Origin: Nemertoderma westbladi
Lineage: Eukaryota; Animalia; Xenacoelomorpha
DNA: 61,951 nt
Assembly: GCA_032718475.1 (NCBI GenBank)
Contig: JAUCBJ010004332.1
Location: 1-61,951, forward strand
Reading direction: 5' to 3'
Shown here one piece after another: positions 5,449 through 45,688 of this stretch (positions within the stretch are counted from its first letter, which is position 1; the number at the start of each line of letters is the position of its first letter). Under the pieces are notes generated by a model that saw only the letters and a list, made by a program, of their open reading frames with translations, did not search any database and was not told the DNA's origin. A program made the translations under genes and the position numbers.

Positions 5449-8400
5449 TTAGTCTTTCTTGCGCGGACGGCATTTACGCAGTTTTTTAAGGTTAGCAAGA
5501 GTCCTTTTCTCATTGGGGTGAGCCACTTTACTAGGAAGGCTATAACTCCTGGGTGAAGGGTGCAATACAATTGCATCGGAAGGTTTGGGATTACGGTTGG
5601 TGTATCCGCTGGTCGAGGTACCTGGTTGATCGATATCAACCTCAGTAGAGCAAGGTCTAACGGCCTTTAGAGCGCGTTTTAGGACAGCAGCTCCTACTGG
5701 TCCCTGACAAGTTGTCTGAACGATAGCGGTAGGTGGACCATGAGTGGTGAGAAACTTCCTCGGTTTAATGGTTCTTTCCAACTTGCGTTCTTGGGCTCGA
5801 TATTCGTAGGGCCGTCAATGTACTTCCTGTAACTCTGGATGCGAGTTGATGAACAAATCGCCATACTCTGGGTCTTGACGGATGAAGTTGATCAAGTTGT
5901 ACGAATTAATATCGTTAGGATTGATGTTCCTGAGATATTTACAAACCAATTTGGTGGAAATACACTCACCAACACGCTTCATTAATTCATAACTCGGTGT
6001 GCGTGATTTTTGTTCAACAGACGCGAATAGATAAGGATGGAAAGCTTAAACTCCTTCATAGGCGCATCCAGGGTAATAGCGATGGCGTGACTCACAATGT
6101 AAATCCGCATCCGCTTCCCAAGCTCGGATGTAGCGCAGGGTAGTCATTTCATCTACGCTTTCCAGATCGCGGTTAAAAGGGCATTCAAAACTGGCATGTC
6201 CTTTAAGTTGACAATGATGGCATTGAGTCATAAATTGGGGGAAGACGGCGAAAATGTGCAAATTATTGAGTCTACAATACGCACAATAGATCTCCATCGC
6301 CGGTTGTTTGTGGAAATAGGAGCAGGGTACGTCTGAGTCCATGGGGGTGAGATGATCTCTCGATGCGCATAATCGGCAACGTTCTCAAGAAACATAGTTG
6401 GCGTGCCGATAATTGTATGCGGTGAGACATTGTGGACCTTGATACCATTCTAAGACGTAGCCGTTGTCACTGCTCCGGGGCGCTGTAGGCTGAATTTCCT
6501 CGGATTCTAAGCATATTGGATTGTCTTCCAATTGCATAGCTGAGGTAGGTGCGGCTGTCTCCTTAAGCGAACCCACTGTCTGAACTTCCACGATAGAATA
6601 ACCCGTGGGTATTTGAGGTCTTTGTATAACAGATGAATGTCAATTCTGTATACAAACGTCCTTGAAAATGGCGAATCCACCGCTGTCTAACATCTCAGCT
6701 TCTGAGTCTCTTAGGCTGAGCTTAGTCAGAGCGCGGTCTTTGAACTGACTATCAACGTTATGGAACGGAGTCAGAAAGCGCCTGAAACATTCGAAGCGGA
6801 TGAATTTATTGTGTTCATCTAGCTTGGCGAGTTTGGTTCCAAGTATTAAGGGATGGGCGCGTATAGTACGACTGCACACATCGGCTAGCCAACCGGCAAG
6901 TGCGGTGTTTTCAAAGATCGTATATATAGCTAAGGAGGGACAAAGTGGAACACTTATAAAGCTATACACGACGCCATGTGCGGTCAATGGTCCATCAAAG
7001 TATAATCGAGAATAATGATCTCCATATATTTGTTGATAGTTGATAGGATTTCCGACCTTGAAATTCCATCCGTATTCTTGAAAGGCAAGATGTCCGATGG
7101 AGGTTCGTTGTACTTTAGTAATGCCGCTGGGTGTATTGGCATACATAGTTCAGAAGAAACCTCGGCCTTCTGCCCAAGGAGCAATCAGCTGAGTATCTAC
7201 GAAAAGATATGGGATATTCTCCATGTTCCTAAAGTCGTTTTGGAGATCTCCATAAACAGCTGAGCCGATTTTAAGGATTCTTTTGTTAAACAACATCTCG
7301 AGCACGGGCTGGGGTAACATCGATCCATCGATACCCATGGCCGGTTTGCGCTCGGTGTCAGTGACATAACGCTGCGCGAGTTCGAATTGTCCATGTCGGA
7401 GTTTCTTTTGTATCTCGGTGAGGGTCTCAAAAGAATAATCAATCACATCGGAACACGCTTGAGTAAATACGTGGGTAGAACCAGATAGTCCTCGTATATG
7501 TATCATGCGCGTAGTTCCCAGTTCTCCAACCAGAACGCTACCTTTGTTATCGTAAGTGACAACTCCATACATCTCGATAACGTTAAGAGTTTCGTTCCAC
7601 TCTTTAGTGGCGTTTTCTAGGGTCATTCCCACTGGATGCCACAAGGTGGTGCATTTGCTAGCGTTAGGTAGATCTCTATACTTCAAATACTGTGTAGTAT
7701 ATGTTTCTACATCTCCATATCGTTGTATTCTCTCCTCTTCGAATAACACATTGAGATTCCAGTGGACTAATCGAGTTTTGATAAATCCATCAAGATTATA
7801 CGGAGGAATTATATCCTTCTCTATTCTGGAAACATTATAGGGTTTTCGGAATGAGTTTACTTTCACTAACTGATTCAGATGTTTCTGCAGTTGTTCGAGT
7901 TCGACAAGATCGAGAGGATTCATTAGTGGTAGAAACCTTAGACTATGTGTAGGATCTTCCGGTTTTACCATGTAATATTGAGTTAGATTGACATAATAAG
8001 GGTGATCTTTGATCCCATAAAACGAGTTCGGTAAAGGTCTAGCGCGTATGTTGACCTCGTGTACCATACGACGGACAAGATCAGCTCTATTGTCCGGAGG
8101 TTCTACGAGTATACCATCGACACGAGTGGCCTCGATTGGCGGACGTTGCAACATAAGAGCGTCAGCGATAAGATCTCGAGATCTTAGGTTGATATCAACC
8201 GGTTGTGGTTGTGCCGTGGCGAAGAGTTTATCTCCGAAATGGAGAACCATCAAAGGATGGATGATGGTTTTAGAATAGAGATCAGTCATAAGGATTTGAG
8301 CTTCTGGCTGGGCTAAAGCTGCTTCTTCTCTCTCATCCACTTCTATGTGTTTCTCCTTGATCTGATTTTTCTCCGCTTGTCGTTGTAAACACTCGTCTAG

Positions 8401-9686
8401 GAACTCTTGTAGAGAATAGGTTCGTCCAAGTTTGATGTCTTCCTCGAGGTTCTGGATTTCTCGATCGAATTGTGGTAAAGCTAATTCTTTCACCGCTTGG
8501 ACTTGTTGTTGCAATTTGCGTTTCTCTAGACAATCGTAAGTTCCTTTTCCAATCTTCTGCCGAATAGCGTCTAACGCGTTTCGACTTCGGTGACGGGTTG
8601 TATCGGGGTTAAACCGGGACGATTGTACGGGTTGAACGGTGATATTAAATGCCCGCGTCCCAATCCAGTTAGGTAGGAAGGGCGAATATCTAGCGAGCCC
8701 ACTACCGGAGTGCCACCGATTAATTGTTTGGGTAACACAAGATCTTTAAATAGTGAGTACAGTTCAGGGGGATCCGTTATACTATTAGGATCAAGCGTTT
8801 GATGTCTCACTAAGGAATGAGGAGGTCTGACCGAGTATTCTGGAACTCTGATCATGGGTTTATTTAAGGATCGTTTGAGTCGAGCGAGCGTAGGTGATAC
8901 GTCGAACAGGTTTTGCTCGAAACTTCCATAAGTATATCGTGTAAAACTGTGTTTAGCGCAACGTCTCCGCGGATGTTTATGTCTTTCTGTTTGCTGATTG
9001 GGTCTAGGGCATTCGTCGCAGTAATACCAAAGACGCACGTCCTGCAGTGGAAATGCGGGTGATCGTTCTCCAGTTTTACAATATTCCTCCATCTGTTTGA
9101 AGCTATCTGGGACAAAAGGTAGCGGTCGATCGGCGGTAAGATACATCATAGTGAAATAGAGCCGTTTGAGTTCTATCATAGGGTCATGATGTATACCTTG
9201 AGGATATCGAGTTTCTAGGTTCTGTTGACTGGCAATATTGAGATATGTTTCTCTCAAGAATTCCAGATAATCGTTGAAGTCGCTGCGTTTATCCGGCTTT
9301 TCAACGTCTTCTCTTTCGAGTCGGTTTCGAATAGAATTCTTGTGTTCTATTCTCGGTTTATCGTTCCGACTCCGCTGGGTATGATATTTAAATAAAACCA
9401 TTTCCCTTTCGGTGTCTACATCGTCCGTATCGTGTAAATCGATAGGATGGCCAGTAGTTAAGAAGTCCATATACGTACCATTATGATGCGTATAGCGAGC
9501 GGTAAATTTTCTATAGTCCAATTCACGTGTAAGTTGCTCCTGGGACATCGACGGTTCGATATAACAACCATTGTCCTCCGTAGTAGTTGGACTAGCGTTG
9601 CCGCGTATCAAGCTATCAACAAACGCTAGTAAAGGTAGAGTGTATCGCTCCCTGATACCAAGATCATCTTCTATCAACTCAGTCAT
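5449..9686 (-). pseudogene. Element A accessory ORF2 (about 1400 aa reconstructed): Cys/His N-terminal domain, DEDDy-like exonuclease, CCHC knuckles
   Basis: ORF 9686-8571, then one frameshift, then a single frame 8514-5449 with in-frame stops. Motifs: YDNKG; LPQPVLEMLFNKRILKIGSAVYGD; FVDTQ; SIGHLAFQEYGWNFK; YTIFE; CAYC..H; CHHCQLKGHASFEC. Confidence 0.75.
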
Positions 9687-10509
9687 AGTTGCTATATGAG
9701 TTTATTAATATTATAATGAGTTTATAATTAGGCTAGCGGGCGTCGCTGCCTACCCCTCTCGGCCCCCGGACAGTGCAAGATTCTCAGCACCGATGTACCG
9801 TCGTTGCTGTGTTTTTTGCCAACGTGTAGCTACACAACGACAACGATAACCAGCACGAGTCACTCCACTGTCCATCCCAAAGGCTTAGATTTACTTCAGG
9901 TTCTTACTGCAGAGTTAGGGCTACTTTCACAATTGCGACTCGCTACTGTAAACACACTTTAGTAGTAACATTCACCTATAAACGCACAAATTCCACACAA
10001 CTGTCACAAATTGTACGCATTCGGGCCATTTGTCCATTAGTCAAGTGCCTTCCAGAATGCCACGTTATTATTATGTACCCTTGGATACTAGCAGTGTGCT
10101 ATGTATTCTCTATGCAAAGCAATGGGGCAAGCTTTCTATTGTTCTCTTAACTCGCTTCTAATTCTATCGTGGTTGTTGCTATGGTGACATTATGGAAAGC
10201 TAGCGGTAGAATTAGGGTAATTCCCATGCATACAGATCTGGGATGCTATTTAATAGTAATTCTTTAATTGTCAATATTCCTCTTTATACATGATTTTATG
10301 AATTTTATCGGCTATTGACTATATATTGGAGATTCTCGCACACTAATATACTTAATAGGGTGAATCTCTGCTCCCATGATCTATTAATTAATGGAATTTT
10401 GGGAATGTTATAAATTGTATAAAAATGACAATTTATCAAATTCATTAAAAGATATGAATTTAAATTTATTCCCGTAAATTTTATTATTTAATATTAAATA
10501 GACACAATT

Positions 10510-10868
10510 TTATTCCAGAGCATGTCTGGGGACTAAGATCCTGAATTCTCTGAAAGTTGTCCTTTTAAGAGTATTGGTAAGTGCTACGATATCTTAATAG
10601 ACTAGAATTTTAAAGGATCTAAAATTTAACAGATTTTAATTTATAGATTTTCTAGAGTTAACTTTTAAGTATTTACTCTATTATATTTGTTTGACAGATT
10701 TTATAAATATTAATAGTTAATATTTAAGATGGGCACCGACTTATTCCAGAACATGTCTGGGGACGCTAACCACTGATTCTAGAATTTTGTCTTTCAAGTA
10801 TATCGGTGGGTGCCGCGATATCTTAATCGACTAGAATTACAGATGGTCAAAGGGTTTAACAGATTTAT
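10510..10868. repeat. Diverged ~130-bp direct repeat in the pol-ORF2 spacer of element A
   Basis: TTATTCCAGA.CATGTCTGGGGAC...CGATATCTTAAT.GACTAGAATT at about 10510 and about 10741. Confidence 0.7.
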
Positions 10869-12438
10869 TTGCGTTGTACACTACTGTTAAAGGGACATCA
10901 CGCTACTATATGTATTATTTAATATACGGTATGAGAGCAATATCGCAAGAAGCAATGTCAGTGAGAAGAGGCAAGTCGTTTCCAAGGTCTACCCAGAGCT
11001 TGGTTTAGCCGAGACACGAGGATTTGAATTTTGCATTACTAATACTCTACTTACCAATAATACTTGAATATAGTAGGAGCTTTATTGTACTTTAATAAGT
11101 ACGGATATTTCATCTTACTGTGGTCACGTATTTATAATATGATACGGACAGTAAGGAAAGAGAAAAATAATTATTTCTCGCCGTCGCACAAAATATATAA
11201 TATAGAAGTAATTAAGTAGTAAGACTAATATATTGCACTAATCTACTAAATAATCGCTAAAATAACATTCTACTAAATAAAATTAAAGAAAACGATTATA
11301 ATAAAATTACATAATAATACATACATAAATACTAGAAAGCCAGCAATCTGGCTGGAAAGAGCCCGGGGGAAAAGTCCTAGCCAAGACTATTACAAAGAAC
11401 TATGTCAGTCAGCAGTAAGTAAACTAAAATTGTCTAAACTGCAAGGCGTGAGGCTAGCTGACTTTGTGGCTCGCCCCACATAATAAAAAATGCAACTTAG
11501 CTACCACTAACAAAAATATAATATGAAGCAAATAATTTCATTATCAAGAACGTTTACAAGATATAAGATGCGATTACCAAATATTTATACAACCAGATAA
11601 ATAACAACGAATAGAGCCAAATAACAAATTTAGTTTCCTTCTATAGGTATTACCCCGTCGTCAAGCGGAATATCTCTTCCCAGTGAATTATATGTGAATA
11701 TGTAATATAGGTACTCCTTAGGCGGTAGGCCAGAGCGGGCTCCTTAAATACATGCAACTACTGTATTATAGTGTAGGTCAACTATAAAACATTTTGCAAT
11801 CCACAGTGAGTATCGACTGCAATAGGACACAGCACACTGCTTTGTGTAACTAAAATTCATTCTCCTGATCCACCCCCTAACATAGCAGAGTGAGTAACCT
11901 TATTGTAGATATACCCTTAGGAAGCACTGGGAGAGCAATCAGCTTAAGGGGTAATAATACATTAGAAACCAACAGCTTATGTGTGAGTAAACATTGCCTT
12001 TCCTTATAGCCTACTAGTAAAACTTGGCAACCAACACGTTTTTCTATGACTGTGTATAACATATTAAGCCATATTTCATCATGAACACCAGCTGTTATTT
12101 TACCATTGCTTTTAATTTCGCGACAAAACAATGTCAAAAAACTAAATATATCGAATACCACACATAGAATCGATCTGAAATTTTGTAACGCGATTATGAA
12201 CCACCAAAGCAATGTACTTGCAAAATTTCATCAAAATCGCCAGGCAGGAAGTGCCTTAACCTAGATAATTATCAGTCAGTATGTCAGTCAGTATGTCAGT
12301 CAGTGTAATGTATCCTGAGATTTTTACAGAAAGTATCCCTGAGATTCTTACAGTAAGTATCCTGCTGTCAAGCGGGCTCCTAATAAAAATAATAAAAATA
12401 TATGAAATAATATAGTCACACACCCACTCCTGACGCTA

Positions 12439-15400
12439 TCACGTTGGGGAGCCCCTAGATGTTTGAGGAATTAGGGAGGTGGTCGTGGGAAGAGTATCTT
12501 GCTTTCCATAGTTTCCGGAGAGTTCTCGGTCTCTTTCCAGTAAACATAAACGACAAACTGGGCGATTGAGCTGCTGCGTCTCAAAGACAATTCCTGGTTT
12601 TTTAAAGTTACGTCGCATGACGACAAGTTCTACCGATCGCACTAAACCATCATCTGACAGATGGGTCTTGATGATACGACCTGTCTGCCACCTCTTTCGT
12701 GGAAGATCTGAGTCCACAATAAGGACCATGTCTCCGGCGCTGACGTTTTCGTGCTGCGCAAGCCACTTAGTTCGCAGTTGTAGCATAGGCAGATAATGTT
12801 TTTCAAAATGGTCAGCAAAACGACGGGATAACAACTGCATAAGTTGCCAAGTTTGCTAGCAGTATTTGTCTCCGTCCGTGATTTCCGATCGTGGGAGCAT
12901 GGCTACAGGTTTCTCCAGTAGGAAGTGCGCGGGTGTTAGCGCTTCCAGGGAATCGGGACTCGATGAGACTGGCATGAGCGGTCTCTTGTTGAGATAGGTG
13001 GCAATTCCCTCCATTAACGTCCGCAAAAGTTTGTCGGTGAGATATGCGCGGCACGGCACTATAAAGTGAAATGCGGTCTTCACGCTCCTGATTAATCTCT
13101 CCCAACTTCCTCCCCACCAAGGGGCGTCGGCGGCGTTGAAGGTCCAGCTAGACGCTGTTACCCTTAGCTGATCGTCCACCTGTCTTTGGTTCCAATCTTT
13201 GACGTAAGCCTTGATTTCATTGTTGGGACCAATGAAGTTTGTTCCCTTATCAGATCTCATCGTATTACTAGTTCCAAAGCAAGCGATCTGTCGGCGTAAG
13301 CTCAGTATGAAGCTGTTGGTAGATAGATTGTTCACCATATTGATATGGATAGCTCTACAAGTCATACAGACAAAGATGACACACCATCTCTTGACTATAG
13401 TCCTAGCACGATATACTTCAATAGGACCAAATAAATCCACACCGGTATTAGTAAAGGGTGGTTCATAGAAGCTTACTCGTTCCCTAGGTAATTCTGCCTC
13501 TCGCTGTGTTAAAGGCCTACTGAATGCTTTCCTACAGGGTATGCAGTTCCTAAGAACTTGGTTCAGAGCTCTACGGGGTTTATGAAAATAATAGCGAGTT
13601 CGAATTTCGCTAAGAACTCGTTCTCTACCAGCATGATAAAGCTTACTGTGAACATCTACAATCATCTTGATTTGTATTTCAAGATTTCTAATGAGTATGG
13701 GAAACTTAGTGTCAAAGGATAATGGAGCATTAGTTAGTCTTCCTCCAACGCGTATTAACCCATCTATCATTGTGCTAGAGAAACGATCCCTTAAGCGCAT
13801 CTGTGGATTTCTCAACAACAGGAAATACTTATCGGAATCCTCATAGCATTGCAGGAGTCTCAGTATCTGCTTATTGGTTTCTTCATGCTCCTGGTAACTG
13901 ATCTTCTCCTTCAGAAACCTGTCGGATATCTTGTATTTGGGAAGATCTTTAACAACATGGACCTGCGCAGATGTCAGTGGAGCGGTATCACTAATGGTCT
14001 TCGTCCTGGAGTAGTGATGATGAAAACATCGCTTTAAATATGTAACAGCCTTACAGAGCCGATTCCAGAAACTATAGTGATGTATCGCTCTCTGCAGGAG
14101 AGGTGAGAGTCCTTGCGAGACGTCTGGTATTCCAGATTTCCAATCTTTCTCTCTGATTTCCACAACAGACTTATTTGTGGCTGGGGGTTTCGGATCCAAA
14201 GCGTTGTCTCCGGAAGTGTGTAGTACAGACAGATCTATCACGGGTTTAAATAATTTCGATTTACTCGCCCGAGTTTTAGGTTTGACTTTCTCTGCTCCCT
14301 TGGCTTGTCTAATCTCCGCCGTAGTAAGATGAGGAGGCCATTCATTCTCTTCTTTGCTTAGGAAGTCGGGTCCACCTAACCAGTCTGGAGTATCTATCAG
14401 TTCCTGTGGAGTTGCTCCCCTGGAGGCGATGTCGGCTGGATTAATCGACCCGGGGCAATGTCTCCATTGATCTATCTTCGTGCGACTAAGTATAATGGCT
14501 ACTCTGTTGGTAACAAAGACACTGAATTAACAGACTTCATTGGTTATATACTCCAACACGAGTAAAGCATCGGTCCAATAGACAATTTTCTCCAGTGAAT
14601 AGTCAATCTGTTCTGTTACATTCCGGCCGATGGCTGTAGCGTATAGAGCTGCCTTTAACTCCGCTCGAGGAACTTTCAACTTGTTGTTTATCAAGGCCTT
14701 AGAGGTAACCAAGGCGACCTTAATTCCATCCGGAGTTTCAACTCTCAGGTAGGCTACTATACCTATTGCCATATCGCTGGCGTCTCCAAACACATGGAGT
14801 TGATAGGAATACGTGGGGAGAAAATGACCAAAATAAGAACGGGAAATTATAAAGTTCTTGATGGATGGTAGAGAATCTTCCCATTTCATCCACTTCTTTA
14901 ATAGTTCTCCCTTAAGTGGATTGTCCCATGAGTGGTTTTCAAGCCACATTTGTTGTACTAAACTCCGAGCGATCAATATAACTGGGCTAATAAATCCCAA
15001 TGGATCGAAATAAGTGCTCAGGATACTTAGACAAATCCGTTTAGTCCGAACTGGATTATCTCGCTGTTTTAGCTGGAAAAACAGTATATCTCTCTCGGTG
15101 TCCCATTTCAAACCAAGCGTCTTGGTTTCTGGAAGATTGTCCCTGATTAGGTCTAGATCTTTAACTCCTCGGTCTTCTACCGGGATCGATTCCAGAAACT
15201 CACGGGAGTTGCTGGTAAATTTAGTTAATCGAAATTCACCTCTTTTTAAGCACTCTACCGTTCCTTTGGCGACATCAATGGCTTCTTCCACCGATGGGAG
15301 GGACTTTAAATTGTCATCCATTTATATATCCCGTTTGATGTTGTCAATAACCTCTTTGGAGAAGGCGTCCCGGTTGTCATCAGCAGTGGTACGCACTACT

Positions 15401-20935: not shown

Positions 20936-21010
20936 TCTCGTAGCGTAGTGGTCAGATGGTTAAGGCGTTGGTTGCATTACATAGGTTACGAGTTCGAATC
21001 TTGGTCGGGA
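20936..21010 (+). promoter_or_regulatory. tRNA-derived segment with Pol III A and B boxes inside LTR B (second copy about 39344-39418)
   Basis: A box TAGCGTAGTGG (20941-20951), then GGTTAAGGCG, then B box GAGTTCGAATC (20990-21000). No clean cloverleaf. Confidence 0.55.
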
Positions 21011-21057
21011 AATTTGCATTGTGGGGCAATTTATTTTCATTTGGTACAAATTGGTAA

Positions 21058-32170: not shown

Positions 32171-34781
32171 ACTAGACACTCAACTAGAAGACCCATTGGA
32201 GCGGACATTTAGAAACTTACCAAATTTGACTTCTTTGGACGACAGAGGTGTGGCCACAGCGATCACACTCCGCTCAAAGAAAGTACTTGACTTACCACCT
32301 ACAGGTAAACGTGTGACTAAGGTTAGGAAGCTCACAGGCTCACAGGAACACACAAATACTGTAGAGTTGAAACCGTTACTGCCAGTCGACACATTAGGTG
32401 CGGACGGTAAAGGTAAAACCGTAGAAATTGACATACTTGGGGACTCAGACAAACCTACCGGAAGGCCCGTGGGCCTACCAAGTCCAGACAAGTATCCACA
32501 CTACGACTATACTTTACCTGATGACGTCACTAACACTTACGTTGACTGGATAGTAAACCTAACTAGATCATGGACTGACGCGTGCCGCAAGTTAGCATGG
32601 CTCAAACGTTTGAGACAATATGCCAGAGGCAAACGCGACTTTCCTAGAAGACTTACCTAAGGGAAGTTGGTCATTGTGAAGTTTATATTGTTAGACATTA
32701 TCAATTGCGATATTTCGCACGAGAATTCACAGCGATCAACCAAGGTAAACAGATCAAGTCTTCACCGATTTTGAGTTGGAGTCCGATTATTTACCGGGGC
32801 TTACTTTGTCACAAGTCCAGACTCCAAAACATCGACTTTGCACTTGACTTTAGGTATCCTATCATCATAAGGCAACACCATGAATTACAGGGAGCTATGA
32901 TACTGGACGCACATGTACAACTCAAACACGCGGGTAGACATCACTGTCTATCACACTTATGATCGAGGTTTGTACTGATTAGACCTAGCAAGGCACTGAG
33001 TTCGGTGACACGGAACTGTATGATTTGTAAGAAGGTGCACGCGAGGATAGGACACCAAGAAATGAGTGAACTTCCACTAGCTAGATTACAGGCGTTTAGA
33101 CCCCCTTTCACTGAGACAGGGATAGACAGTTTTGGACCCATAATCGCGAAACGCCGAAGGGTCCAGGTAAAACGTTGGGGAATGATCTTCACTTGCATGG
33201 CCAGCAGAGCTGTCCATATAGAGCGTGTGACAGATTTAACCACCAATGCCTTTATCCTAGCCTTACAGCGATTTATCGCTAGACGTGGATTGGTCAAATC
33301 CATTTACTGCGACCAAGGGACAAACTTTGTGGGTGCATGGAACAAAACAACCAGAGCTTTGAGAAAATTGGACCAAAACCAGATTTCCGAGGAACTACGT
33401 CCTCACCGAATTGTTTGGTATTTTAATACTCCAGACAGTCCGTGGAGAGGCGGCATTTGGGAAAAGCTGATTGGCTCAATTAAGACAGCTATGGCTAAAG
33501 TAATACCGACGCAACACATATTGACAGACAACCAACTGACGACGCTGTTAATAGAAACCAAAGCAATTTTGAACACACGACCGATTGCTTTGATCCTAGA
33601 CAATAACGACGCACAGTTTGCCTTGACACCAGCGCACCTGCTTTATGCAGGCGCCAACGACATTGTTGCCCATTTTGGTACCCGTTAATAGCGACAGATA
33701 CGGCAACAAAACTTGGAAAATCACTCAATTGATTGCAAATAAATTCTGGGAAATATGGCAGAAATATTATTTGCCCTCTATTTCGACCAGAACCTCTTGG
33801 TATTTAAATACCCGATGTTTGAAACGTGGTGACCATGTTTTATTGACTGAAGCCAATCTGAAAAGACGGTTTTGGCTGACCGGAGCCATTTTGACCACGC
33901 ACCCTACATCTGGTGTAGTGAGAACAGTTACTGTAAGGACTATCCGCGGTCGTACCATAGACAGACCAGTACAACGTCTCGTGCTCCTTGAGGAGACTAG
34001 AAACGAGACAGGAGACTACGAATCTCCACCCAATATTAGTAAATAGAGATGTGGGACCCTTGTTGGCCACCACATAGACCTACCGTATTTAGTAATTTAG
34101 CATTTTGTATTACTGTACGTGCATTTGTAATCCTCTTCACTGTAGTTAGAGACAGCGGTGGAATTCCATTGTCTTTATATGTGAACATGGAGGGTAGTAC
34201 CCTTATGTATCACATAGGAGCGGGATTGTGTGTACAGTAGGAATGGAATTCCACTTGGAACCCACAAGTGAGACAATTTTTCAAAAATTATTAGACAAAT
34301 CCATTTAGTTGGATTTAAATTTAAGAAAAATGATTCTCCAGTGAATGTGAATTCTAGAATACAGCTAGATAAGAAATAAAATTGGGGAGGACAAGAGCGG
34401 ATGGAAGTCTTGCGAGCCTACCGATAAATTTTTTTTGGAAAAGAAAATCGGCCTTGTTCTACGTAGTCATGTCTACTATTATTTAGACCGAATTAACTCT
34501 CGACTGCATTATTTTCTTTGGGAATGTAGTTTGGGAAATTAAAAGGTGAGTATTTTACACTCGTGGCTAGTTTACCCGGAATTCGTTTTTTATCGGCACA
34601 TTTTTTTGGATTAGGAGCCACTGCAAAATCACGCGAGCCCAAAGTCATTAGGCAAATGGGTTGGGGTTTTAGAGCAAAGTTGAGCCAAAAGCCAACAAAC
34701 TCTAAGTCACCTCACATCTAACCTCTATTTTGTGCTTCATCTAGTAGAAACGTAACGATATGTAATCATATATAAGCGTAT

Positions 34782-37700
34782 ATGATGGCGGAGAATATTT
34801 ATAAGGAGTTACGTCAAGGGTTTACACAGGAACAAGAGCACCAGGCGCCATTTAATCGTCATGGAGCTAAAAACTTTAGTGTGTTTGGAGTAGAGAGTAT
34901 GGCTAGGAGTACAGCCAAGCTCGCTAAATCCAAGGCGGACCCGAATGTTACGCGGCAGCGATTGGACGCTTATAACAAAAGAACGGAGGAATTATGCACG
35001 GAGTTCAATGCGTTATATCCTTACAATGCGTTATGCGACGCTAGTGACATTTGCGAGGATCCAGACACCGAAATACGCCGATTATATCATATGCTGCAAT
35101 ATTTGACGGTAAACGAACCCTTACCTGCAGCCAGAGACAAATTCGAAGGAATGCATCTTTATAGACGCGCTCAAGGAGCGGATCCAGAGACAAAGGACGT
35201 GTTCTCCATATACAAACTGTTTTATAAATGTGGAGCATGTATGCGCGAGCAAGACAACGCGATTCCTATGCGGTTGAACTCGGAGAACCCCGATCGATGT
35301 TAGCGCGATGCTCATACCACCAAAGTCTACGTTACCAAGAAGGCGGATACCCTTTGACGAATCCATATCATTCATTTAAGATGAGTGGACTGAACGCGGG
35401 TGAGATCGTTATTTACAAACCCAAATTAGTCGAACCAGACGTCTACAGTATGGTAGTGGATGAGTCTATTAAGTCGACACAAGAGAAACTGGAAGCTTTG
35501 AGCCTCTACAGGGCATACAAGGCGTACGAGAAAGGCAAGATCGAGGAGTTTGGCGGAAGGCTCGCAAGCCTACCATTCTATTGGATATCCCACAATCAAA
35601 CCGAACCTAAGGAGATGACACCCGAGCTCTTCGATAGTATCACCTTTGCTCAGCGTTTGTCGCAGAGACTACAGATACCTCATGTCGATATGACGCGAGA
35701 ACCTCAACCCCATTCTGCTGGAACGATAGTACCGGTTGCAAGGCCAACTAGTTTTCCTATTAGTATACCGACCCGGAAGGAGACAACTTACAAGATTCCT
35801 ATAGTTGAACACCCAGAGATCATTTCAAACCTGGATTTCCTCCCATCGGTTACCTATGGTGATGTGTTCGAGTCAGCCGAGTTGCGTAGAACAATAGTTC
35901 AGAAAATCGTACGCAATGTGCCTCCACACATTACGGACTTTGAGGAAGTGGATCGCGCGGGGACGGATATCGCACCTTGTATCTTGCGAGGATATCTAAC
36001 TAAAACAATTTGATTATGGATTGGAGTCGGAACGTTTGAGACCGACACCGATATCGCGACCAATTGGACTGGAAAACCTATTAGTTTCGATGATGAAAAG
36101 TCGATTAGGAGAATTTGGAACCTACCGACGATTTACTCGACAATTGGGACGTGACTAGCCGATCTCTGAAGGAGAATGGTTATATGTTTCACGATAATGA
36201 AGGAGGAAGCCACCAGCAAAGCCTCACTTTGAAGACTATACAGATTAGAGCACCAGATGGCGTGTTACATGTCTTCAGCCGACAAAGAAGCGATAGAAAG
36301 ATGCCTATGCCGGAAGGAACGATGCAAAGACACGCGATGATAAAACGGATAGTTAAATCCATGGACCTGGCTTGTAGCATAGAAGCTAGGATGTTGCCAA
36401 AGGCTGTGCGAGACGTTGTGCTGGATAAAAGCATCGTCAAGATCGGATCCGGTGTACGGGATGACCTTATTAGCAACTTTGCAGGGATGCCCATGGAAGA
36501 GGACCGATTGCCTACGCCATACGTGGATACTAGACCATTGTTGCTTTGGGCTATCGAGCAAGGATACTTTAGAGAGTATAACACGCAAAAACTGGGACGG
36601 GTTATATCTCATATCTAATGTTCAGTTGGGATTATAAGGAGAGTAAGAGGAGCAAATACACGGATGTATACGGAGAGGGAGACACCCCCAACGTAAACGA
36701 GTTCGAGTCACAGCTAAAGTAGCGAGGTTGCGTGTACTGGGCGATTACATCACCTCCCCGAATAATCTTACAATACTACTTGGCGATAGAATCTTCAGTC
36801 AACGTCTGCTTCATCGCTGATGTTGTGTCTAGGACTCTAAAGCAACATCCGTTATGTCTCGGTGAAGGACATACCTTTTACGACAGAGGAAGAACGCATA
36901 CTGATGTATTCCAACGATTTCTCCAACCCTTTTATAACACCGATGCGCACTGTAAAGTTTTCACGCGAGCAGGACTTAGCATTTTCAGGGACGTCTATCT
37001 CACTCACGCGGGAAGTCTAGTCAACAGACCATCGATGTTAATGTTAGTACCCTATGAGGGGGAACGCCACGCGGAATTCAAAGGCCCGGAAGGATCCTGG
37101 AAGGCTCGCAAGCCTACTGCCCATCACGACGATGTGGATCCGACCGAGTTGGCGATAATAGACAAACCATTGCGGCAACTCATAGAAATAGAGGAGAACC
37201 TTCCGAGGAAGATGCAAACTGAGATACGCGAGTTGGAGAAAAGCGATGCCATGGTTTGTGTACAACCCACGGAGACGAACATACCAACTGACCCGACTGA
37301 TGAGAATTATCATGTGGACGGTAGCGCTCGCCCCATCGGAGATCTTATCTATGAGCGAGTTTGGTACCCTGCCAACACTATTTGTGGCAGATGCGGGGCA
37401 ACTGGCCACCATGCAAAGAAATGCGGAGCGAAACACATATCTCTACCGGACTTAGTATGCAACTGGTGCGGGGATCAGCGTTCGCATACTTTCTACACTT
37501 GCTGGCGTTTCGTGGCGCAGTGCACATATTGTAATATTAAAGGCCATAGGGCGTCCGAATGTCAACTTAGAGACGTTCCCTATGAGCATATGTCAGTTAA
37601 AATCGTTCGACAGCGATTCGACCATTGGGAGAATCTAGCAGACGAGCATGTATCAACGCAGCAACGCCGTTTCCCTATGAGAGCACATTTAGGATTTTGG

Positions 37701-38335
37701 GCCATAAACCCTCTCATAATGTCGAAGGAAGGATACGTGTTGGCTATACCTCAGTACGACGAACTTCTGGAAGTGCTGGATATATTGCCACTGGATAGCG
37801 GATTTAAGGTTGTGCGGGACTACTTTCTACAGGTACACCCCGACAACAAGAATACTTGGAACTTTCAAACTGTGGTGAACAAGATTACCGCCAGGGAATT
37901 CGACAAATTGCGAGTTGAACAGCGGAATCAAGGAGCCTGGCATTCGATAGCTTGGGCATACAGAAGCGCATTTTATCACAAACGCGTAACCTCGTGTATT
38001 CTGACGAGACCGACGTTTTGCGTGAGACTGGCTTCAAAGCCACACCGTTAGCTGAAAAGACGCGTCACCCACAGGATGATCAGCAATTTCGTATACTCAG
38101 AGCCCAAAAGGCCGGACAAGAGATAAAGAAAGTAGTAAATGTCGCCGAGAAGACAACATCAAAGTCGCAAATCCGGATGACTCGGGGCACGGTTTCCCTT
38201 GCTAGAGAACCACGCGGAGGGACAGGATACGTTTTGCCGGAACCCATTAGGATTCAAACAACGTCAGAGAGCAAGGTGTCAACGGACGGAACGGTCCCAC
38301 CCTTTCGACTTCCTCCCAGCGTTGTAGAAACTTGA
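34782..38335 (+). pseudogene. Element B accessory ORF2: Cys/His N-terminal domain, DEDDy-like exonuclease, three CCHC knuckles (disrupted)
   Basis: Motifs: HDNEG; LPKAVRDVVLDKSIVKIGSGVRDD; YVDTR; YLAIE; CGRCGATGHHAKKC; CNWCGDQRSHTFYTC; CTYCNIKGHRASEC. Collinear with ORF2 of A. The 3' end is approximate. Confidence 0.78.
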
Positions 38336-38573
38336 TCCGATGTTAAGCCGACAGTTGGAATCAGACGAGGATTTAGAGGACTGAGCGCACAACGGATGAG
38401 CGAGACTCCCATCGTCCCTTTTCCTAGCGTTTTGGAACCACCAACAACTCGACGCCGAAGTCCGAGACCAGTTCGATCTCGACCACCACCCAGTCGTGCT
38501 AGAGGACGTGGACGAGCCCGGTCGGCTAAGGAATAGGAAAGCGAAGAGAAAGGAAGGCTTGCGAGCCTACCGA

Positions 38574-38678
38574 TTGGATATTTATATTTGGATATTTATA
38601 TTTGGATATTATATTTGGATATTATATTTGGATATTATATTTGGATATTATATTTGGATGTTATATTTGGATATTTAT
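38574..38678. repeat. 12-bp minisatellite (TTGGATATTATA)n
   Basis: About 8 tandem units directly visible. Confidence 0.9.
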
Positions 38679-40884
38679 GTCAAATGTTGGTTTGGAGGAG
38701 CGAGATAGAGAAGGAAGGCTTGCGAGCCTACCATTAGCAATCAGTGCTCGGGAGAAGATATCCAGATCAGCAGGATGAACTTTTAAGATCGTCAGAAGGA
38801 CACTTTAAGACTCATTTGAAAGTTATTAGCGCATTATGTTTATTTTATATTTGGACTGATTTAATTTGGTGGAAATTTATTATGTATATTTACAATATAT
38901 GAAAGAATAATTGAAAGAGTTTGAAATTATTTGTTCTAATTTGTTTAATCTAATTTGTTTGATTTGCTTATCTTGATAACCAAAAGCTTATTTTTGTATT
39001 TTAGGCACTAAAGTTAATTAGTAAATTTTTATTTTGTATGTATGATCGATTGTATTTACGCCGTACCTGCAATATTAAGTATGCAATAATTAGATAGTGA
39101 TTATATTTTATATTTTAGGCCCCACCCGTAGATTTAGAAATATTTTGTAAATAGTTTTGTATTTCGATTGGTGAAAACAGTCTTACTTACTGTTTTCATG
39201 GAGAGGTGATGAATTATTTCACTATAAGATAGCATTTGTAGTTTAACTTTAACGTAAAACTTTCGAAAATCCGACGCATTTTGATTAAGTTACAGTAATG
39301 TAATATGCCTATTTATATTTGTATACATAAAACCCCTAGTTACTCTCGTGGCGTAGTGGTCAGACGGTTAAGGCGTTGGTTGCATTACATAGGTTACGAG
39401 TTCGAATCTTGGTCGGGAAATTTGCATTTTGGGGCAATTTATTTTCATTTGGTACAAATTGGTAAGCCAATGAGGTGCGTACAACGTATCGAACGATGAG
39501 ATAGGCCAATCATAGGGCATGGAATAACTTATTGCTCCAATGTGAGGCCATGGAATACTCTAGAAGGTTCTAGTGAATTCTATGTCCCAGATTTAGTATA
39601 TAAAGGGCTGGTTTGCCTTCGGTTATCACTTGTAAACCTAGTTATCTTCTGGTCTTGACACAATTGTACTCATTAGCTATCACTTCTTGTTGTCATTTCT
39701 TAACTTGTTTCTTGTTGAAACTATGTTAAATCTGTTCGATTATTCTTTTGCTAAACTGTAAATACACTGGAAATTTCTGAACATGTTTTTCTTTGGTCCA
39801 ACTTTGGGACAGCCAAACATCGGGAAGATGACCGCCTAGACCGTTAGGCCGTCGGCAACGCAGGGAAAAGATGTCCACAACACGCTAGTGCCCACATTAG
39901 ATTAGACCGCGCACCCCCTTCGCCCTTGGAAATACTCCACTTGCCATGCAGCGCCCGCTTTATGAGGAAGGTAAGACTTTGTTTGACGCCCTTGCCCGCC
40001 GTAAGACCTATAGATCAGGGTAAGCGTGACGCCGTCCTGGGACGTTGCAAAATTTAGGATCAAATAATTATATTTAGGCAGAACCCCTTTTGTCAGTCCT
40101 GCAAACCCCCGGGTTACCTGTATACCTCACAGGTAATGTGAGCTATTGCCGTTCGTCAGTACGCAAGTACATATTAGGAACGGACAGCATACGTTCCATA
40201 ATTTAGTGATTTGTAGTACTGACTGTTTGGTACCGGTTCGCTTTGTAGAACATACATTAGTACCCCACCTCGACTGAAGTTAGTTATTTGATCAGGCAAG
40301 GAGTATTTCCGCTACCGGCACACCGCTTGGCCTAGGGAGGTTTTATAAATATCCTACCGTGCCTTGCCACGTACTGATAGGTATCTGCTGCTAACTACCG
40401 CAGCAACAAAGTTCTAGAATCAAATTCGTATACCAGATAAGCTAACGTACGGTAGCAATTAACCCCTATTTATTATCTTACAACCAGAATCTGGTGTTTG
40501 TGCCAATCACGGGTGTAGTTACTAACACCGTGGTTGCCCAGTGAGTTGTGGATAGGAAGGAGAGAGTCATTTGTAAGTATAAAGTTCTACAAAACGCAAC
40601 TAGTTTATTTTAGTAGCTAGCGCACGATATTATTTCGGTCAGAAAATTACTAAAACCTAGTAAAATGGTATACCAAAATTGTTTTATTGTAACACACCCA
40701 CACACACACGCCCTAACATATTTACCCTTAGAGTTTCTACTAGTTATAGCGCACTTTAGATTACCTTTAGGCAAAATTTATCTGTATTTGTAAGATTAGG
40801 ATCTGATATTTAGTTACGGCAAGAAAGGGAGTATTTCATTTTGTTATTAAACTGTTGTTTTCTGTGCAGCAGTTATTGTCTATA

Positions 40885-41829
40885 CCCGTCCTTATTGAAC
40901 GACGATCCAACATCAAATGCTGGGGAGCCATCTTCACCTGCCTGAGGTCTAGGGCAATTTACCTAGATATCGTGGTAAATCTGACACAACACGCATTCAT
41001 AAACGCTCTGCGTCGGTTCGTGGCAAACAACGGGACATGCCGCCACATGTATTCCGATAATGGTACAAACTTTGTGGGAGGAGAAAGGGAACTTAGAGAG
41101 GCGATCGAGGGATGGTTTACCGATAACACTGCATCCCAAGTCTGGAAGGAACACCAGATACAGTGGCACTTCCAGACCCCCTTAGCACCCCATACGAGCG
41201 GGGTATGGGAGAAACTAATCGACCTAGTGAAACGGTCCATGCGCGTCGCTCTAGGCGATACCCGGGTAACCCATGACACCCTCCGCACAACATTTTGCGA
41301 GATCACGGCTACCCTGAACAACCGACCCATTGTTCCTATCCGCGACGACCCCACAGACCTGGAACCCCTCACTCCTAACCACTTACTGGGGAGACCCAAA
41401 ACCCACCTCCTCCCGGAAACCATGTTCCCGGATCCCAATGAGATCACGAAACATACAAACTGGAAAAAGGCCCAAGCATTGGCAGCGCATTGGTGGAGGA
41501 TTTGGGCCCAGGAATATCTCATAACCCTCCGGACCAGGAGGAAATGGAACAACACCCACCGGAACGTTGCAGTTGGCGACATGGTACTAGTTAGAGAAGA
41601 TCTCAAAGACCGCGTTCACTGGCCTGTGGCGCGGGTCGTGACCATACACCCAAGCAAAGACGGACTTGCGAGGACTGTGACGATACGAACGAAAGCGGGC
41701 CACTACCAACGCCCCATCCAGAAGCTGTGCCTTCTTGAAGGCAATGACAGTGGTGATTCTACAAGAGGTGATAAGTTCCCTACTACGGATCCTGCTGCAG
41801 ACATCGGTGACAATGACAAATGTGTTTAA
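40885..41829 (+). pseudogene. BEL integrase core and C-terminal domain of element C, N-terminally truncated
   Basis: Motifs KCWGAIFTCL..RAIYLD, SDNGTNFVG, GVWEKL, LNNRP, LTPNHLL, RPIQKLCLLE. Starts just after the first catalytic Asp. Confidence 0.92.
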
Positions 41830-42106
41830 ACCCTTCTCATCATGTTGACAAACTCTTTATAAACTGTGATTTATCAACAATGAGTTATGGACCCCCCTTA
41901 AACCAACTGTAACCACGCAATGGTATTTGTGTTTCCTCGTGTGTTATGTGGAGTCCAGCATCACCCTGCAGATGTTTCGACTGACGCAGGGTCGTTTATG
42001 CATTGTTTACCCTGATTTTGGTCATCGGGACCAACGATATTGGATTATTGGAAATGGAAAAGATTTGAAGTGGAATTCATTGTATTCATTGCAGTATGTT
42101 ATGTTG

Positions 42107-42530
42107 TCCGTTGCGTGCGCAGTTCGGGGCGTAGGCGGTGTAACGAGTCCAGCTGTAGATCCTGGATTGCCGCGCAACACCCCCTCTATCCCGTTATTCT
42201 GGTGGGTCCATGGTGCATCCACATGACTTCGACGATAGAGGGTTTTATGTTTCTCAGTCGCGTTATTCTGGTGGGACCGTTGCGTGGATTTTGGGGCGTA
42301 GGCGGTGTAACGAGTCCAGCTGTAGATCCCAGAATGTTGCGTAACCCCATCCCACATGACTTCGTCGACTGAGCTTTATGTTGTTGGGAGTGTTATTCTG
42401 GTGGGTCCCTGGTGCATCCACGTGACTTCACTCCCAGCGTCTTCATTGTCCGTTACGTGCGCAGTTTGGGGCGTAGGCGGTGTAACGAGTCCAGCTGTAG
42501 ATCCCAGATTGCCGCGTAACACCCCTTCCA
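42107..42530 (+). repeat. Three ~170-bp tandem repeats in the pol-ORF2 spacer of C
   Basis: Invariant core GGGGCGTAGGCGGTGTAACGAGTCCAGCTGTAGATCC at 42126, 42293 and 42468. Confidence 0.9.
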
Positions 42531-43087
42531 CGACAAAGATTAACCAAAGAAAATGATTGAATATAGTTGGAAATGATGAAAAGGATCAGACAACTCTGCC
42601 ATAAACCTGAATGATGACGCGTATACTGATGAAAATGAAATGATGCGCACCCTGGTGCTGCGCTTATAACAATGATGATAGCCGGGGGGCTATAAACCCA
42701 ATGATGATGTGGAAATAAATAAATAAATGTGAAATAAATGGTGGAACTAAATGTGTTGAAATATATGTGGAAATAAATGAAATGAGATGAAATAATAATG
42801 AAAAGAAATGAAAAAAGAAAAAAAAAGGTATAAAAGAGGTCAAAGAAAAGAATTGGAAAAAAAAGGACAAAAAAGTCATAAAAAAAAACTGGTTGGATAT
42901 TATGTATAGCTATAGTAACTGTAAATGCTGAATGTATTAGCAATAAGATGATAGATGTCTATATAGCAATGTTATTTAATAAACTGAATTCAATAAAAAA
43001 AACTGAATTATTCTGCTATCGCTATAGTTTCAGACTTTCTGGACTTATAATTAACTGATCTAATTTGTAACGGATATAATCGTAAAT

Positions 43088-45688
43088 ATGGACCCAAATC
43101 GCCAAATTATTGGCGAATTACGTAACACGATAGATCTACTGGAATATTCGCAACCCGGATCCCCTGACTTTGATACAAATTGGAACATTCTGCTAAATGA
43201 GAACGTACGAGAAATTAAATTCACCGGGCGAGAGGGACCGGATTCTAAGAATCTACGAGCCCTCCGGTTAGCCGATGCTAGTACGAGACTGAAAAGAACT
43301 CGGAACGCAAAGGCAACCGGAGGGGACGATTCGTCGTTTTGGGAAACGTTCCGGCAGAGCGTCTACAGATCCCGATGTTTGATCTACGACAACGAGGGAA
43401 ACGCGACGCCCACCTCGAAGGCGATTACGTTGGCGAGATGTCAGAGTTTCGTCGACGACAAGAGTACGTACCTCGCCCACTGGGGAAACCTGTCGGAGTG
43501 TACGGCGACGCTTCGAGAGGAACGCGTATCGATTATCCAAAACCGCGACGACTACCAGGAAAAGTACGGGGCGAAAGAATACGGTCGATCCTTAGTCGTC
43601 GTCCTCGGAACCCTGGACGGTTTGGTACTGGTGTGCCGAATATTCCCGACACCCAGACATGAAGTGCAGGCAGCCGGAGCGATCTGGTTGCTGCCTCCGG
43701 ATATCCAAAAGATCCTCTTCGACTTCGACGTCATTAAAATCGGGTCGGATATCAAGGCGGACGTCCGGAACGACTACGCGAACGCTCCCGCAGGAAGAAA
43801 CCGATGAAATGACCTCAACGCACTTAGCCATTGCATCGACACTCAAACGCTGCTAGCCTGGTTACGATTCGCCGAGTTCATGCGAGGATTCCAAGAAGTG
43901 AGACTGACGAAATCCGGGATCGGCTACCTCGCTGTGCTCAACGGCGGTATCGACTTCAAACCCCAGAAATTCCGGGACTATAATAAAATATACGGCGGAT
44001 ACCCGGGATTAGAGATAAAGAGCGAGCGAGAGGGTCGATGGAAGGACGTCGATCGGAAGTGGACGATACACCAAAGGTGGGAGAATCCCGATCGACGGAG
44101 CTATATCTACGTCGTTATGGAATGCTACACCGTCGCTAAGTTTATCTGCAAGACTCTAGATAACCTCATCACGGCGGTCCCCCTTTCCTTCGTCGACTAC
44201 GACTGGAACGAGGTTATAAACCACGCGTTTAAAGCGGTCGAGAACATTACACCGGGAGAATCAAAAACGCCCGCCGTTATCGATTCCTGGGACGAGAGCG
44301 GACCTTACGACATCCCTACGATTACCGAACTTCTCGGTGCGGAGGAGCCTCTGATCTCCTCGGAAGGGGAAGAGATATGGCTAAACGAGGGTGTTCTACT
44401 CTCCACCCCGAAGCGACAACTCGAACCGGAGGCCGCGTACGGACCGGCCGCCAAACGGGTTGCCTCGGCCGAACCGGTGAAGAGAGCAGGCGTCTACACC
44501 CCACGCGGCTCCGGTAGCCCCGCGAGAGAGGTAGCCACTACGGCTGCATTGAGCGACTTCGGCGACATATGCCAACGGTTATCCCCGTATCCTTTCCCGG
44601 GCGGCGAAGATTGGTCGTCGGAGATTCCGAGTACCAGCCACCAACGGACCCGCTCAGCGATACTGGTCGAGGAAGGCCCCAGCGATGCGCCGACACCCGA
44701 CGATCTCCTCGGTATCCCTCCGTCGAAAACCCCGGCACCTCTTCGCCGACCAGCGGTGGCTACTACACCCGCCATTCCTCAGGACCCTATGCGACTAACC
44801 CGTTGGTACGCCGAGCAAACTGAATGGATCCACCGCCAGAAACGGTCGTCCGAGTTGAGACCATCGGGACATAAAGAGGGTTATCGAAGCGAGAACATAC
44901 TACGCAAGAGCCCAGCATTCCGCGGGCTACCGACCACCGAGAATATTCCGAAGAGCGACCGACGTCTCGAATACTACGCCGGCGTCCCGATTCCGATATT
45001 CCCCGGTCGAGAGATGCAGTTGGAGGTATGCGGCGACTGCGGTTCGGAGCAGTGCCCACGCAGCAGAAGGAATCGAGTTACCGATTCTTGCCTCCAGCTC
45101 CTCGGGATACTCTATTGCCCATACTGCGCGATATCGGGCCACGACGTTTCGGTCTGTCCGATCCTTTATAACCTCTGCACCACGTGCGGTTTCCGTGGAC
45201 ATTCCGCTAGCCCCCACTGCTATATTAAATGTCCAACCAAAGACGTTACCGCTATGGGCAATATGGTCATGTTTGAGACATACGCAAACAGCCATTTAAA
45301 GACCAAGTTTCGGAGAAACGCTCGGAATATCGCGCAGGAGATGGCGTGCGGATATTTCTCCTTCCCGGAACGCCTCCACACGTCAGCCTCGCTACCCTTC
45401 CATTACGTGGATCTGCTACTGAGCGCCGGTTTATTCGGTCCATTCGAAGTTATTAGACGATTATATTCGTATAAAGAGGAGTTCGGTGACGGAGAATGGT
45501 TCCTAGAGACACGCAACTCCGAGTTGGAAAGACGAACCGACATGATCCCGTTGCCTTCGAAAGGAAGAGCCGCCAGGAGACAAGCCGAAGCGTTACTCAC
45601 GATGGATGTTGACGCTCCTCTACCAGCCATAGCGATCGATGAGAGTCGACGGGCGAAGAGACGGAAGGCGTATCAGAAAAAGAAATAG
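43088..45688 (+). pseudogene. Element C accessory ORF2 (about 866 codons, one in-frame TGA at 43805): DEDDy-like exonuclease, Pro-rich linker, CCHC knuckles
   Basis: Motifs: YDNEG; LPPDIQKILFDFDVIKIGSDIKAD; CIDTQ; SGIGYLAVLNGGIDFK; RWENPDRRSYIYVVME; CPYCAISGHDVSVCPILYNLCTTCGFRGH. Confidence 0.8.

What the first reader, a model, noticed from the sequence alone, without database searches (positions are those of the whole stretch)
5449..45688. Three diverged BEL/Pao elements all carry an exonuclease plus zinc-knuckle gene where env would be
Seen: between pol and the 3' LTR, elements A (9686-5449), B (34782-38335) and C (43088-45688) each have an 870-1400-codon ORF with collinear motifs. These are [YH]DN[EK]G, LP.....L.[DN]...KIGS....D, [VI]DT, G..G[YH]L.....[ND][FY]K, Y...E, then CX2CX4-5HX4C knuckles and a [WF]E..A[DN].H motif. 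Established: this pattern is that of DnaQ-superfamily DEDDy exonucleases (WRN-exo, EXD, Mut-7, RNase D), several of which act in small-RNA trimming. Known BEL extra ORFs are mostly env-like. I recall DEDDy ORFs being reported in some bdelloid rotifer retroelements, so the idea has precedent. Inference: retention in three lineages with little nucleotide similarity points to an old, selected BEL sub-lineage encoding an RNA-binding exonuclease. It could be an anti-silencing (piRNA/siRNA) factor, a primer or RNA 3'-end processing enzyme, or a proofreader for these large genomes.
Basis: partly seen in the sequence, partly recalled or inferred. Interest (0 to 1): 0.88.

Follow-up and report, generated by a model that had tools for sequence, protein, structure and literature searches.

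The report
Giant BEL/Pao retrotransposons carry exonuclease gene
Three distantly related, nested jumping genes of the BEL/Pao group each carry, where an envelope gene would sit, a now broken extra gene predicted to encode an RNA-trimming enzyme joined to zinc knuckles, and selection appears to have kept it, so these elements likely bring their own tool against the host's silencing RNAs.

Summary
A, B (nested in A) and C (a 5'-truncated fragment in B's 3' LTR) are BEL/Pao elements. Each has a 0.87-1.4 kcodon reading frame between integrase and the 3' LTR, broken in all three copies. The three proteins are homologous (about 27% identity) and have no envelope features. A DEDDy-type (RNase D/WRN-like) exonuclease is supported: ESM Atlas neighbours are PF01612 for A and B, and the three-copy profile matches a DEDDy reference (HHalign 83.8%, E 8e-6; 0 of 60 shuffles) but not DEDDh. 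Only the ExoII region aligns by profile; ExoI and ExoIII are read from motifs, the last acid is Glu, not Asp, and both folds failed. Among copies of C, 27 of 40 listed differences are synonymous (32% expected). No relatives were found in the databases searched. Exonuclease ORF3s are published for bdelloid Juno/Vesta elements, and this scan noted exonuclease-knuckle ORF3s in Gypsy elements of other genomes; I found neither for BEL/Pao, but Repbase/GyDB and older Cer papers could not be checked. Verdict: new variant of a known kind; target RNA unknown.

The parts
4167..50886 (-). Element A, complete BEL/Pao provirus, about 19.5 kb without the nested B; 5-bp target duplication
   Evidence: Peptidase_A17 6.7e-38
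4167..5369 (-). A 3' LTR (TG...CA); 17 substitutions in 1203 against the 5' LTR at 49684-50886
5449..9686 (-). A extra gene, about 1410 codons, 5 stops and 1 frame change
9003..9194 (-). A N-terminal Cys/His-containing domain shared with B (37% over 68 aa, E 4e-8), absent from C; no Pfam match
6910..7554 (-). A DEDDy-like exonuclease region (ExoI-like DNK, ExoII KIGS...D, DT, ExoIII-like YxxxE)
6100..6384 (-). A zinc-knuckle cluster and WExxADxH motif
12439..20577 (-). A gag-pol, broken at about 9-10 places
20799..48030 (+). Element B, complete BEL/Pao provirus inserted in A's leader, 5-bp target duplication; about 19.6 kb without C and a LINE fragment; 2267-bp LTRs (20799-23065; 3' copy split into 39207-40876 and 47446-48030)
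   Evidence: Peptidase_A17 5.8e-40 and RVT_1
34782..38335 (+). B extra gene, about 1180 codons, at least 4 frame changes and 1 stop
36190..36791 (+). B DEDDy-like exonuclease region
37383..37650 (+). B three CCHC knuckles and WExxADxH motif
40877..47440 (+). Element C, 5'-truncated fragment (integrase C-half with DUF5641, extra gene, purine tract, LTR-like end from about 46052) inserted in B's 3' LTR with a 5-bp target duplication
43088..45688 (+). C extra gene, 866 codons, 1 stop; differences among copies are mostly synonymous
43385..44122 (+). C DEDDy-like exonuclease region
45032..45295 (+). C zinc-knuckle cluster and FExxANxH motif

Best explanation
These BEL/Pao elements carry a third gene, now broken in these copies, predicted to encode a soluble RNase D/WRN-type 3'-5' exonuclease joined to zinc knuckles, which would likely grip single-stranded RNA and trim it from the 3' end, most likely the host's small silencing RNAs aimed at the element. 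Shown: position, homology among three families, absence of envelope features, knuckles, and purifying selection in family C. Supported but not proven: the DEDDy-type fold (about 0.85). Inferred: catalytic activity with Glu as fourth acid (about 0.65), and RNA as substrate, by analogy with trypanosome RNase D, whose CCHC knuckles bind RNA and raise cleavage. Weakest step: the target. Anti-silencing is chosen because small RNAs are the main selective pressure on animal retrotransposons and family C is highly repeated; no call bears on the target directly.
For: ESM Atlas: B fragment top hits 0.92/0.92, 27 of 30 hits in PF01612 clusters; A fragment top hit 0.90, all four rows shown PF01612, the first a cluster commonest in Rotifera. 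HHalign of the three-copy profile against 63 bacterial PF01612 domains: 83.8%, E 7.9e-6, 48 columns, 0 of 60 column shuffles reach the score; against 30 DEDDh domains 0.18%. The same HMM run over 618 six-frame tiles of the window ranked A's KIGS region first (E 0.027), with B's and C's also among the top rows. In the joint alignment the D-x-[EK] of A and B falls on the RNase D ExoI column. A [WF]...Y-x3-acid motif closes the domain, as W-x11-Y-x3-D does in 57 of 63 references. 27 of 40 listed differences among C copies are synonymous, against 32% expected, P 3.5e-6, omega-like ratio about 0.22. No signal peptide by reading; highest 19-residue hydropathy 1.68 (A) and 1.48 (B). Exo + CCHC architecture with knuckle-dependent RNA binding: PMC7797062 (passages).
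Against: Pfam hmmscan finds no exonuclease family in any piece. PDB sequence searches gave nothing meaningful. Atlas shared-feature counts (158, 176, 163; 144, 126, 147) are mostly under the tool's 170 mark for same-family hits. The profile match covers only ExoII to DT; single copies score 45%, 10% and 3%, and the WRN-like subset gave 7.8%. Motif spacings are 30-60 residues longer than in most references. The fourth acid is Glu in 3 of 3, against Asp in 57 of 57 references with the motif. A has Lys at the ExoI Glu. C has one segment of hydropathy 2.08, in a predicted beta-strand region. The 40 differences were the tool's best-supported of 258, and selection was tested for C only. Nothing tested the substrate.
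Confidence: 0.35

Rival explanations
1. The same active exoribonuclease acts on the element's own RNA: it matures the 3' end, or trims a self-made primer back to its paired part.
For: A and B both lack a TGG tRNA primer site, and their first 11 and 10 leader bases pair exactly with one LTR-internal site (5 and 21 of 5000 anchored shuffles). PMC5408684 proposes 3'-end processing for the rotifer ORFs. Knuckles resemble nucleocapsid RNA binders.
Against: Unchecked notes of this scan report the same leader-LTR pairing in BEL/Pao elements of other genomes with no mention of an exonuclease, so the pairing may not depend on it. Tf1-type self-priming uses RNase H (recalled). The transcription start is unknown.
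Confidence: 0.22
2. The domain is catalytically dead or weak and serves as an RNA-binding adaptor (as EXD1, Maelstrom, Egalitarian), moving or protecting the element's RNA.
For: Asp to Glu at ExoIII in 3 of 3; long insertions; A's ExoI Lys. PMC5408684 names inactive DEDD derivatives in piRNA biology. Other notes of this scan describe dead DEDDh cargo (unchecked).
Against: Acidic residues and the Tyr are kept at all four positions across about 27%-identical proteins (except one position in decayed A), which is what catalysis predicts. Rotifer ORFs also carry a D-to-E change ('DEED'). I recall that the equivalent D-to-E mutant of Klenow keeps much activity (not checked).
Confidence: 0.2
3. It proofreads or trims the cDNA, allowing 19.5-kb genomes, like nidovirus ExoN.
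For: A and B are about twice the 4.2-10 kb ICTV range. The DEDDy class includes polymerase proofreading domains.
Against: It is a separate gene, not fused to RT. Knuckles point to single-stranded RNA. Much of the extra length is the gene itself plus long LTRs.
Confidence: 0.1
4. The motifs are a chance likeness, or the gene is a neutral passenger.
For: No Pfam, PDB or fold support; no database relatives.
Against: Two Atlas queries and the profile test point to the same family; DEDDh control negative; synonymous excess; retention in three families whose pol proteins are 33-44% identical.
Confidence: 0.13

Closest known systems
DEDDy-exonuclease ORF3 of bdelloid rotifer LTR retrotransposons Juno1/2 and Vesta2/5, also in Athena/Terminon elements (PMC5408684)
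   Same: Stand-alone gene after pol in the env slot, RNase D-like, non-membrane, one acid changed from D to E, function untested.
   Different: Those four rotifer clades (Juno, Vesta, TelKA, Mag) are not described as BEL/Pao in the passages read. The change is written DEED there and sits at the fourth acid here. Here the protein is 870-1400 aa with a knuckle cluster and, in A and B, an extra N-terminal domain.
Trypanosoma brucei RNase D (TbRND; PDB 7C42-7C4C; PMC7797062)
   Same: 3'-5' exonuclease followed by CCHC knuckles; the best model for how the protein would bind and trim RNA.
   Different: A cellular mitochondrial enzyme of about 375 aa. No sequence match to it was found, so the architecture may be convergent.
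Belpaoviridae (BEL/Pao) with env, e.g. Cer13, Atlas, Tas (PMC8742986, PMC9094657)
   Same: gag-pol domain order, Peptidase_A17 and DUF5641, third gene after pol.
   Different: The third gene is not env-like. Genomes are about 19.5 kb against 4.2-10 kb, B's LTR is 2.3 kb against 0.2-1.2 kb, and there is no tRNA primer site.
Cellular DEDDy small-RNA trimmers and adaptors (Mut-7/Nibbler, EXD1/EXD2, WRN-exo, Egalitarian)
   Same: KIG-x5-D form of ExoII, as in the bacterial WRN-like set fetched here (KVGVG-x3-D).
   Different: No direct match shown (WRN-like subset 7.8%); the eukaryotic members were not available as sequences.

Membership tests
BEL/Pao (Belpaoviridae) | LTRs with TG...CA ends and target duplication | tested here: met
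   A and B complete with 5-bp duplications; C has a duplication but only one LTR-like end
BEL/Pao (Belpaoviridae) | gag-PR-RT-RH-IN order with Pao-specific domains | tested here: met
   Peptidase_A17 in A and B, DUF5641 in C, YVDD in B; C's integrase is 33-42% identical to A's and B's
BEL/Pao (Belpaoviridae) | RT phylogeny within the family | not tested
   No reference BEL sequences were held
BEL/Pao (Belpaoviridae) | 18-nt tRNA primer site and 4.2-10 kb genome (ICTV description) | tested here: not met
   No TGG after either 5' LTR; about 19.5 kb. These are descriptive traits, so the elements are atypical rather than excluded
DEDDy exonucleases (PF01612 class) | Profile similarity to the family | tested here: inconclusive
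   HHalign 83.8%, E 7.9e-6 over 48 columns and Atlas PF01612, but no Pfam hit
DEDDy exonucleases (PF01612 class) | ExoI D-x-E | tested here: inconclusive
   D-N-E in B and C, D-N-K in A; aligned to the reference column for A and B only
DEDDy exonucleases (PF01612 class) | ExoII Asp | tested here: met
   3 of 3, aligned by profile
DEDDy exonucleases (PF01612 class) | ExoIII Y-x3-D | tested here: not met
   Y-x3-E in 3 of 3, against D in 57 of 57 references with the motif; placed by motif only. Filed as DEDDy-like, not as a canonical member
DEDDy exonucleases (PF01612 class) | RNase H-like fold | tested here: inconclusive
   Models unusable, pLDDT 34 and 33
DEDDy exonucleases (PF01612 class) | Two-metal 3'-5' exonuclease activity | not testable with these tools
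   Needs an assay
DEDDh exonucleases (PF00929) | Profile similarity | tested here: not met
   0.18%, E 0.33, while the DEDDy reference scores 94.5% against the same set
Envelope (env) genes | Signal peptide and C-terminal membrane anchor | tested here: not met
   N-termini hydrophilic by reading; no C-terminal hydrophobic stretch; one internal 2.08 segment in C
Bdelloid DEDDy ORF3 pool | Common ancestry with Juno/Vesta/Athena DEDDy ORFs | not testable with these tools
   Sequences not held; the paper's supplement has primers only

The most novel reading that the evidence does not exclude
An old, undescribed lineage of giant (about 19.5 kb), tRNA-independent BEL/Pao elements encodes an active knuckle-guided exoribonuclease with a Glu-variant active site that destroys or mis-trims host piRNAs: a retrotransposon-encoded enzymatic suppressor of small-RNA silencing in an animal.
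Probability: 0.2. Interest if true: 0.88.

Novelty: new variant of a known kind. Interest (0 to 1): 0.6.

Why it matters
Animal retrotransposons are not known to encode enzymes against piRNA silencing (my knowledge, not a search result), and third genes of BEL/Pao are described as env only (PMC8742986). A selected exonuclease-knuckle gene in three diverged BEL/Pao families, alongside similar cargo in rotifer elements, suggests repeated recruitment of one RNA-trimming design by unrelated LTR lineages. It gives a defined protein and a repeat-rich host in which to ask what that cargo does.

Tried and rejected
Homologue searches found nothing: protein database with C's 626-aa piece, C's exonuclease region against longer proteins and the 4-row alignment; metagenome contigs twice; viral contigs; phage tblastn. 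These are word-based and poor in animal transposons, so the blanks do not show absence. No result of the deep HMMER search of cluster representatives is used, so distant relatives remain open. No host genome was held, so whole copies, true dN/dS and trees could not be made. AlphaFold failed twice; no fold search was run on those models. PDB sequence hits (DJ-1 homologue D, E 0.076; an uncharacterised protein, E 0.56) were rejected as chance. The HHalign result is void because element A was read off frame in my script; it was redone (the HMM tile scan is unaffected). No RNA holder was listed; run X5 is only guessed to be RNA, so expression is untested. Rfam: 0 matches. Env and DEDDh identities were rejected. 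Literature: ten searches found no BEL/Pao exonuclease; 'exonuclease' occurs 0 times in PMC3118150 and PMC9094657. Malik et al. 2000 and the Terminon paper are not held. I have an uncertain memory that an exonuclease domain was noted in nematode Cer elements; it is unchecked and would lower novelty.
Full report
Layout. Self-comparison and the junction sequences show three nested elements. A (minus strand, 4167-50886) has 1203-bp LTRs differing at 17 sites and a 5-bp target duplication. B (20799-48030) sits in A's leader with its own duplication and 2267-bp LTRs. C (40877-47440) sits in B's 3' LTR, again with a duplication, but starts inside integrase. Pfam gives Peptidase_A17 for A and B and DUF5641 for C, so all are BEL/Pao; their pol pieces are 33-44% identical. 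Without nested inserts A and B are each about 19.5 kb, twice the range in the ICTV profile (PMC8742986, whole text).

The observation. All are broken: A by 5 stops and 1 frame change, B by at least 4 frame changes and 1 stop, C by 1 stop. By my count, break density in A and B is similar in the extra gene and in gag-pol (roughly 1.2-1.7 per kb), so the gene decayed along with the element. The motifs are there in order, except that G..G[YH]L matches none as written and A has D-N-K. The three proteins are homologous over the exonuclease region (E 4e-21, 8e-10, 4e-12; 27-28% identity) and the knuckle region. A and B share a further N-terminal Cys/His domain (E 4e-8) that C lacks. None has a signal peptide or C-terminal anchor.

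Is it an exonuclease? Standard tools say nothing: no Pfam exonuclease, no useful PDB hit, and two folds at pLDDT 34 and 33. More sensitive tests agree with each other. The ESM Atlas puts B's fragment among PF01612 clusters (0.92; 27 of 30 hits) and A's likewise (0.90), though shared-feature counts are mostly below the level typical of same-family hits. I built a reference of 63 bacterial PF01612 domains. Its HMM ranked A's KIGS region first among 618 tiles of the window (E 0.027), B's at E 4.2 and C's at E 13. The three-copy profile, with X at breaks, matched the reference at 83.8%, E 7.9e-6, over 48 columns from L-x2-[IML]-L to DT; 0 of 60 shuffles came near (best 20.5 against 40.7). It did not match 30 DEDDh domains (0.18%). 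The 17 WRN-like references alone gave only 7.8%. ExoI aligned for A and B but not C. ExoIII did not align: I place it at [WF]-x(9-12)-Y-x3-E by likeness to W-x11-Y-x3-D in 57 of 63 references. Spacings are longer than in the references (82-116 against 50-80 residues; 112-124 against 70-80). So this is a DEDDy-like domain with insertions and Glu as the fourth acid; it is not filed as a canonical member.

Is it selected? C's gene is held by public runs of one organism in three studies, plus a small share in a second organism. Thousands of contig pieces at 80-100% identity cover it in two runs, so the family is highly repeated. Of the 40 differences shown (of 258 listed; the tool's best-supported), 28 are at third codon positions and 27 are synonymous, against 32% expected: P 3.5e-6, omega-like ratio about 0.22. 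None of the 40 falls in a motif, which is weak evidence given the short motifs. A and B were not tested. Expression is untested.

How it likely works. The closest working model is trypanosome RNase D, an exonuclease with C-terminal CCHC knuckles that bind RNA and raise cleavage (PMC7797062, passages; its PDB entries appeared). By analogy the protein would hold single-stranded RNA with its knuckles and trim it from the 3' end. I rank host small RNAs as the likeliest target (0.35 for the whole chain), then the element's own RNA or primer (0.22; A and B lack a tRNA site and show leader-LTR pairing), an inactive adaptor (0.2), cDNA proofreading (0.1), and chance or passenger (0.13). Nothing here tests the substrate.

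What is known. DEDDy ORF3s are described in bdelloid Juno and Vesta elements and in Athena elements (PMC5408684: passages, Introduction and a primer-only supplement) and are cited as such in PMC6431247, PMC6338049 and PMC5718144 (passages). BEL/Pao third genes are described as env (PMC8742986; PMC3118150, PMC9094657 and PMC11599104, passages); PMC11662393 (passages) gave nothing relevant. Ten searches found no BEL/Pao exonuclease. Malik et al. 2000, the Terminon paper, Repbase and GyDB could not be read, and I have an unchecked memory of an exonuclease in nematode Cer elements. Earlier notes of this scan (unchecked) describe Rrp6-like exonuclease-knuckle ORF3s in Gypsy elements of other genomes; none was found for BEL/Pao, for this genome or for this sequence.

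Verdict. A real, selected, non-env accessory gene, very probably of the DEDDy exonuclease class, in three diverged giant BEL/Pao families. The idea has precedent; the host group, size, knuckle architecture and Glu variant appear new. New variant of a known kind, interest 0.6.

Noticed in passing
window 49673-49683 (A leader, minus) and 23066-23075 (B leader): Neither complete element has a tRNA primer site. The first 11 (A) and 10 (B) leader bases pair exactly with one LTR-internal site (LTR positions 444 and 915); 5 and 21 of 5000 shuffles. This is a possible self-priming signature, like earlier notes of the scan on other genomes.
   Followed up: partly
window 24857, 25891, 25984, 28504, 28582, 28660, 34404, 35556, 37100, 38553, 38714: A 19-base near-palindrome recurs at 11 sites through B's gag, pol, extra gene and spacers, and nowhere else in the window; 0 expected. 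Possibly a cis signal. Two copies lie inside the extra gene, tying it to the family.
   Followed up: partly
window 28680-29770: An RTE-like LINE fragment is inserted into one copy of that palindrome with a 10-bp duplication.
   Followed up: partly
window 46262-47069: C's LTR-like end holds five or six 95-base repeats; one folds as a long hairpin with a UUCG loop and a GAUGA/UGA internal loop resembling a kink-turn (name recalled). z-scores are weak (-1.95, -0.43, +0.72) and Rfam is negative.
   Followed up: partly
window 40877-47440: C begins at a TG inside integrase yet has a clean 5-bp target duplication: aberrant integration or a later deletion.
   Followed up: no
window 20799-23065 against 39207-40876 and 47446-48030: B's LTRs differ more (55 of 2251 sites) than those of A (17 of 1203), into which B is inserted; the excess lies in the first 1.67 kb.
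   Followed up: no
window 42104-42528: Three 83-base repeats between C's pol and extra gene; one folds at z -3.1.
   Followed up: partly
window 54364-60555: A 1345-aa ORF that by my reading resembles a protein-primed DNA polymerase B (no Pfam hit), next to a TBP-like gene (PF00352, E 6.6e-9); likely a Polinton/adintovirus-like element.
   Followed up: no
window 52254-53313: Penelope-like fragment by reading: RT (RVT_1, E 2.4e-6) followed by a GIY-YIG-like ORF.
   Followed up: no
window 124-801: A solo or partial LTR 81% like A's, on the other strand.
   Followed up: no
extra genes against pol: CpG observed/expected is 1.1-1.4 in the extra genes and 0.81-0.83 in pol, consistent with a different origin or constraint.
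   Followed up: no
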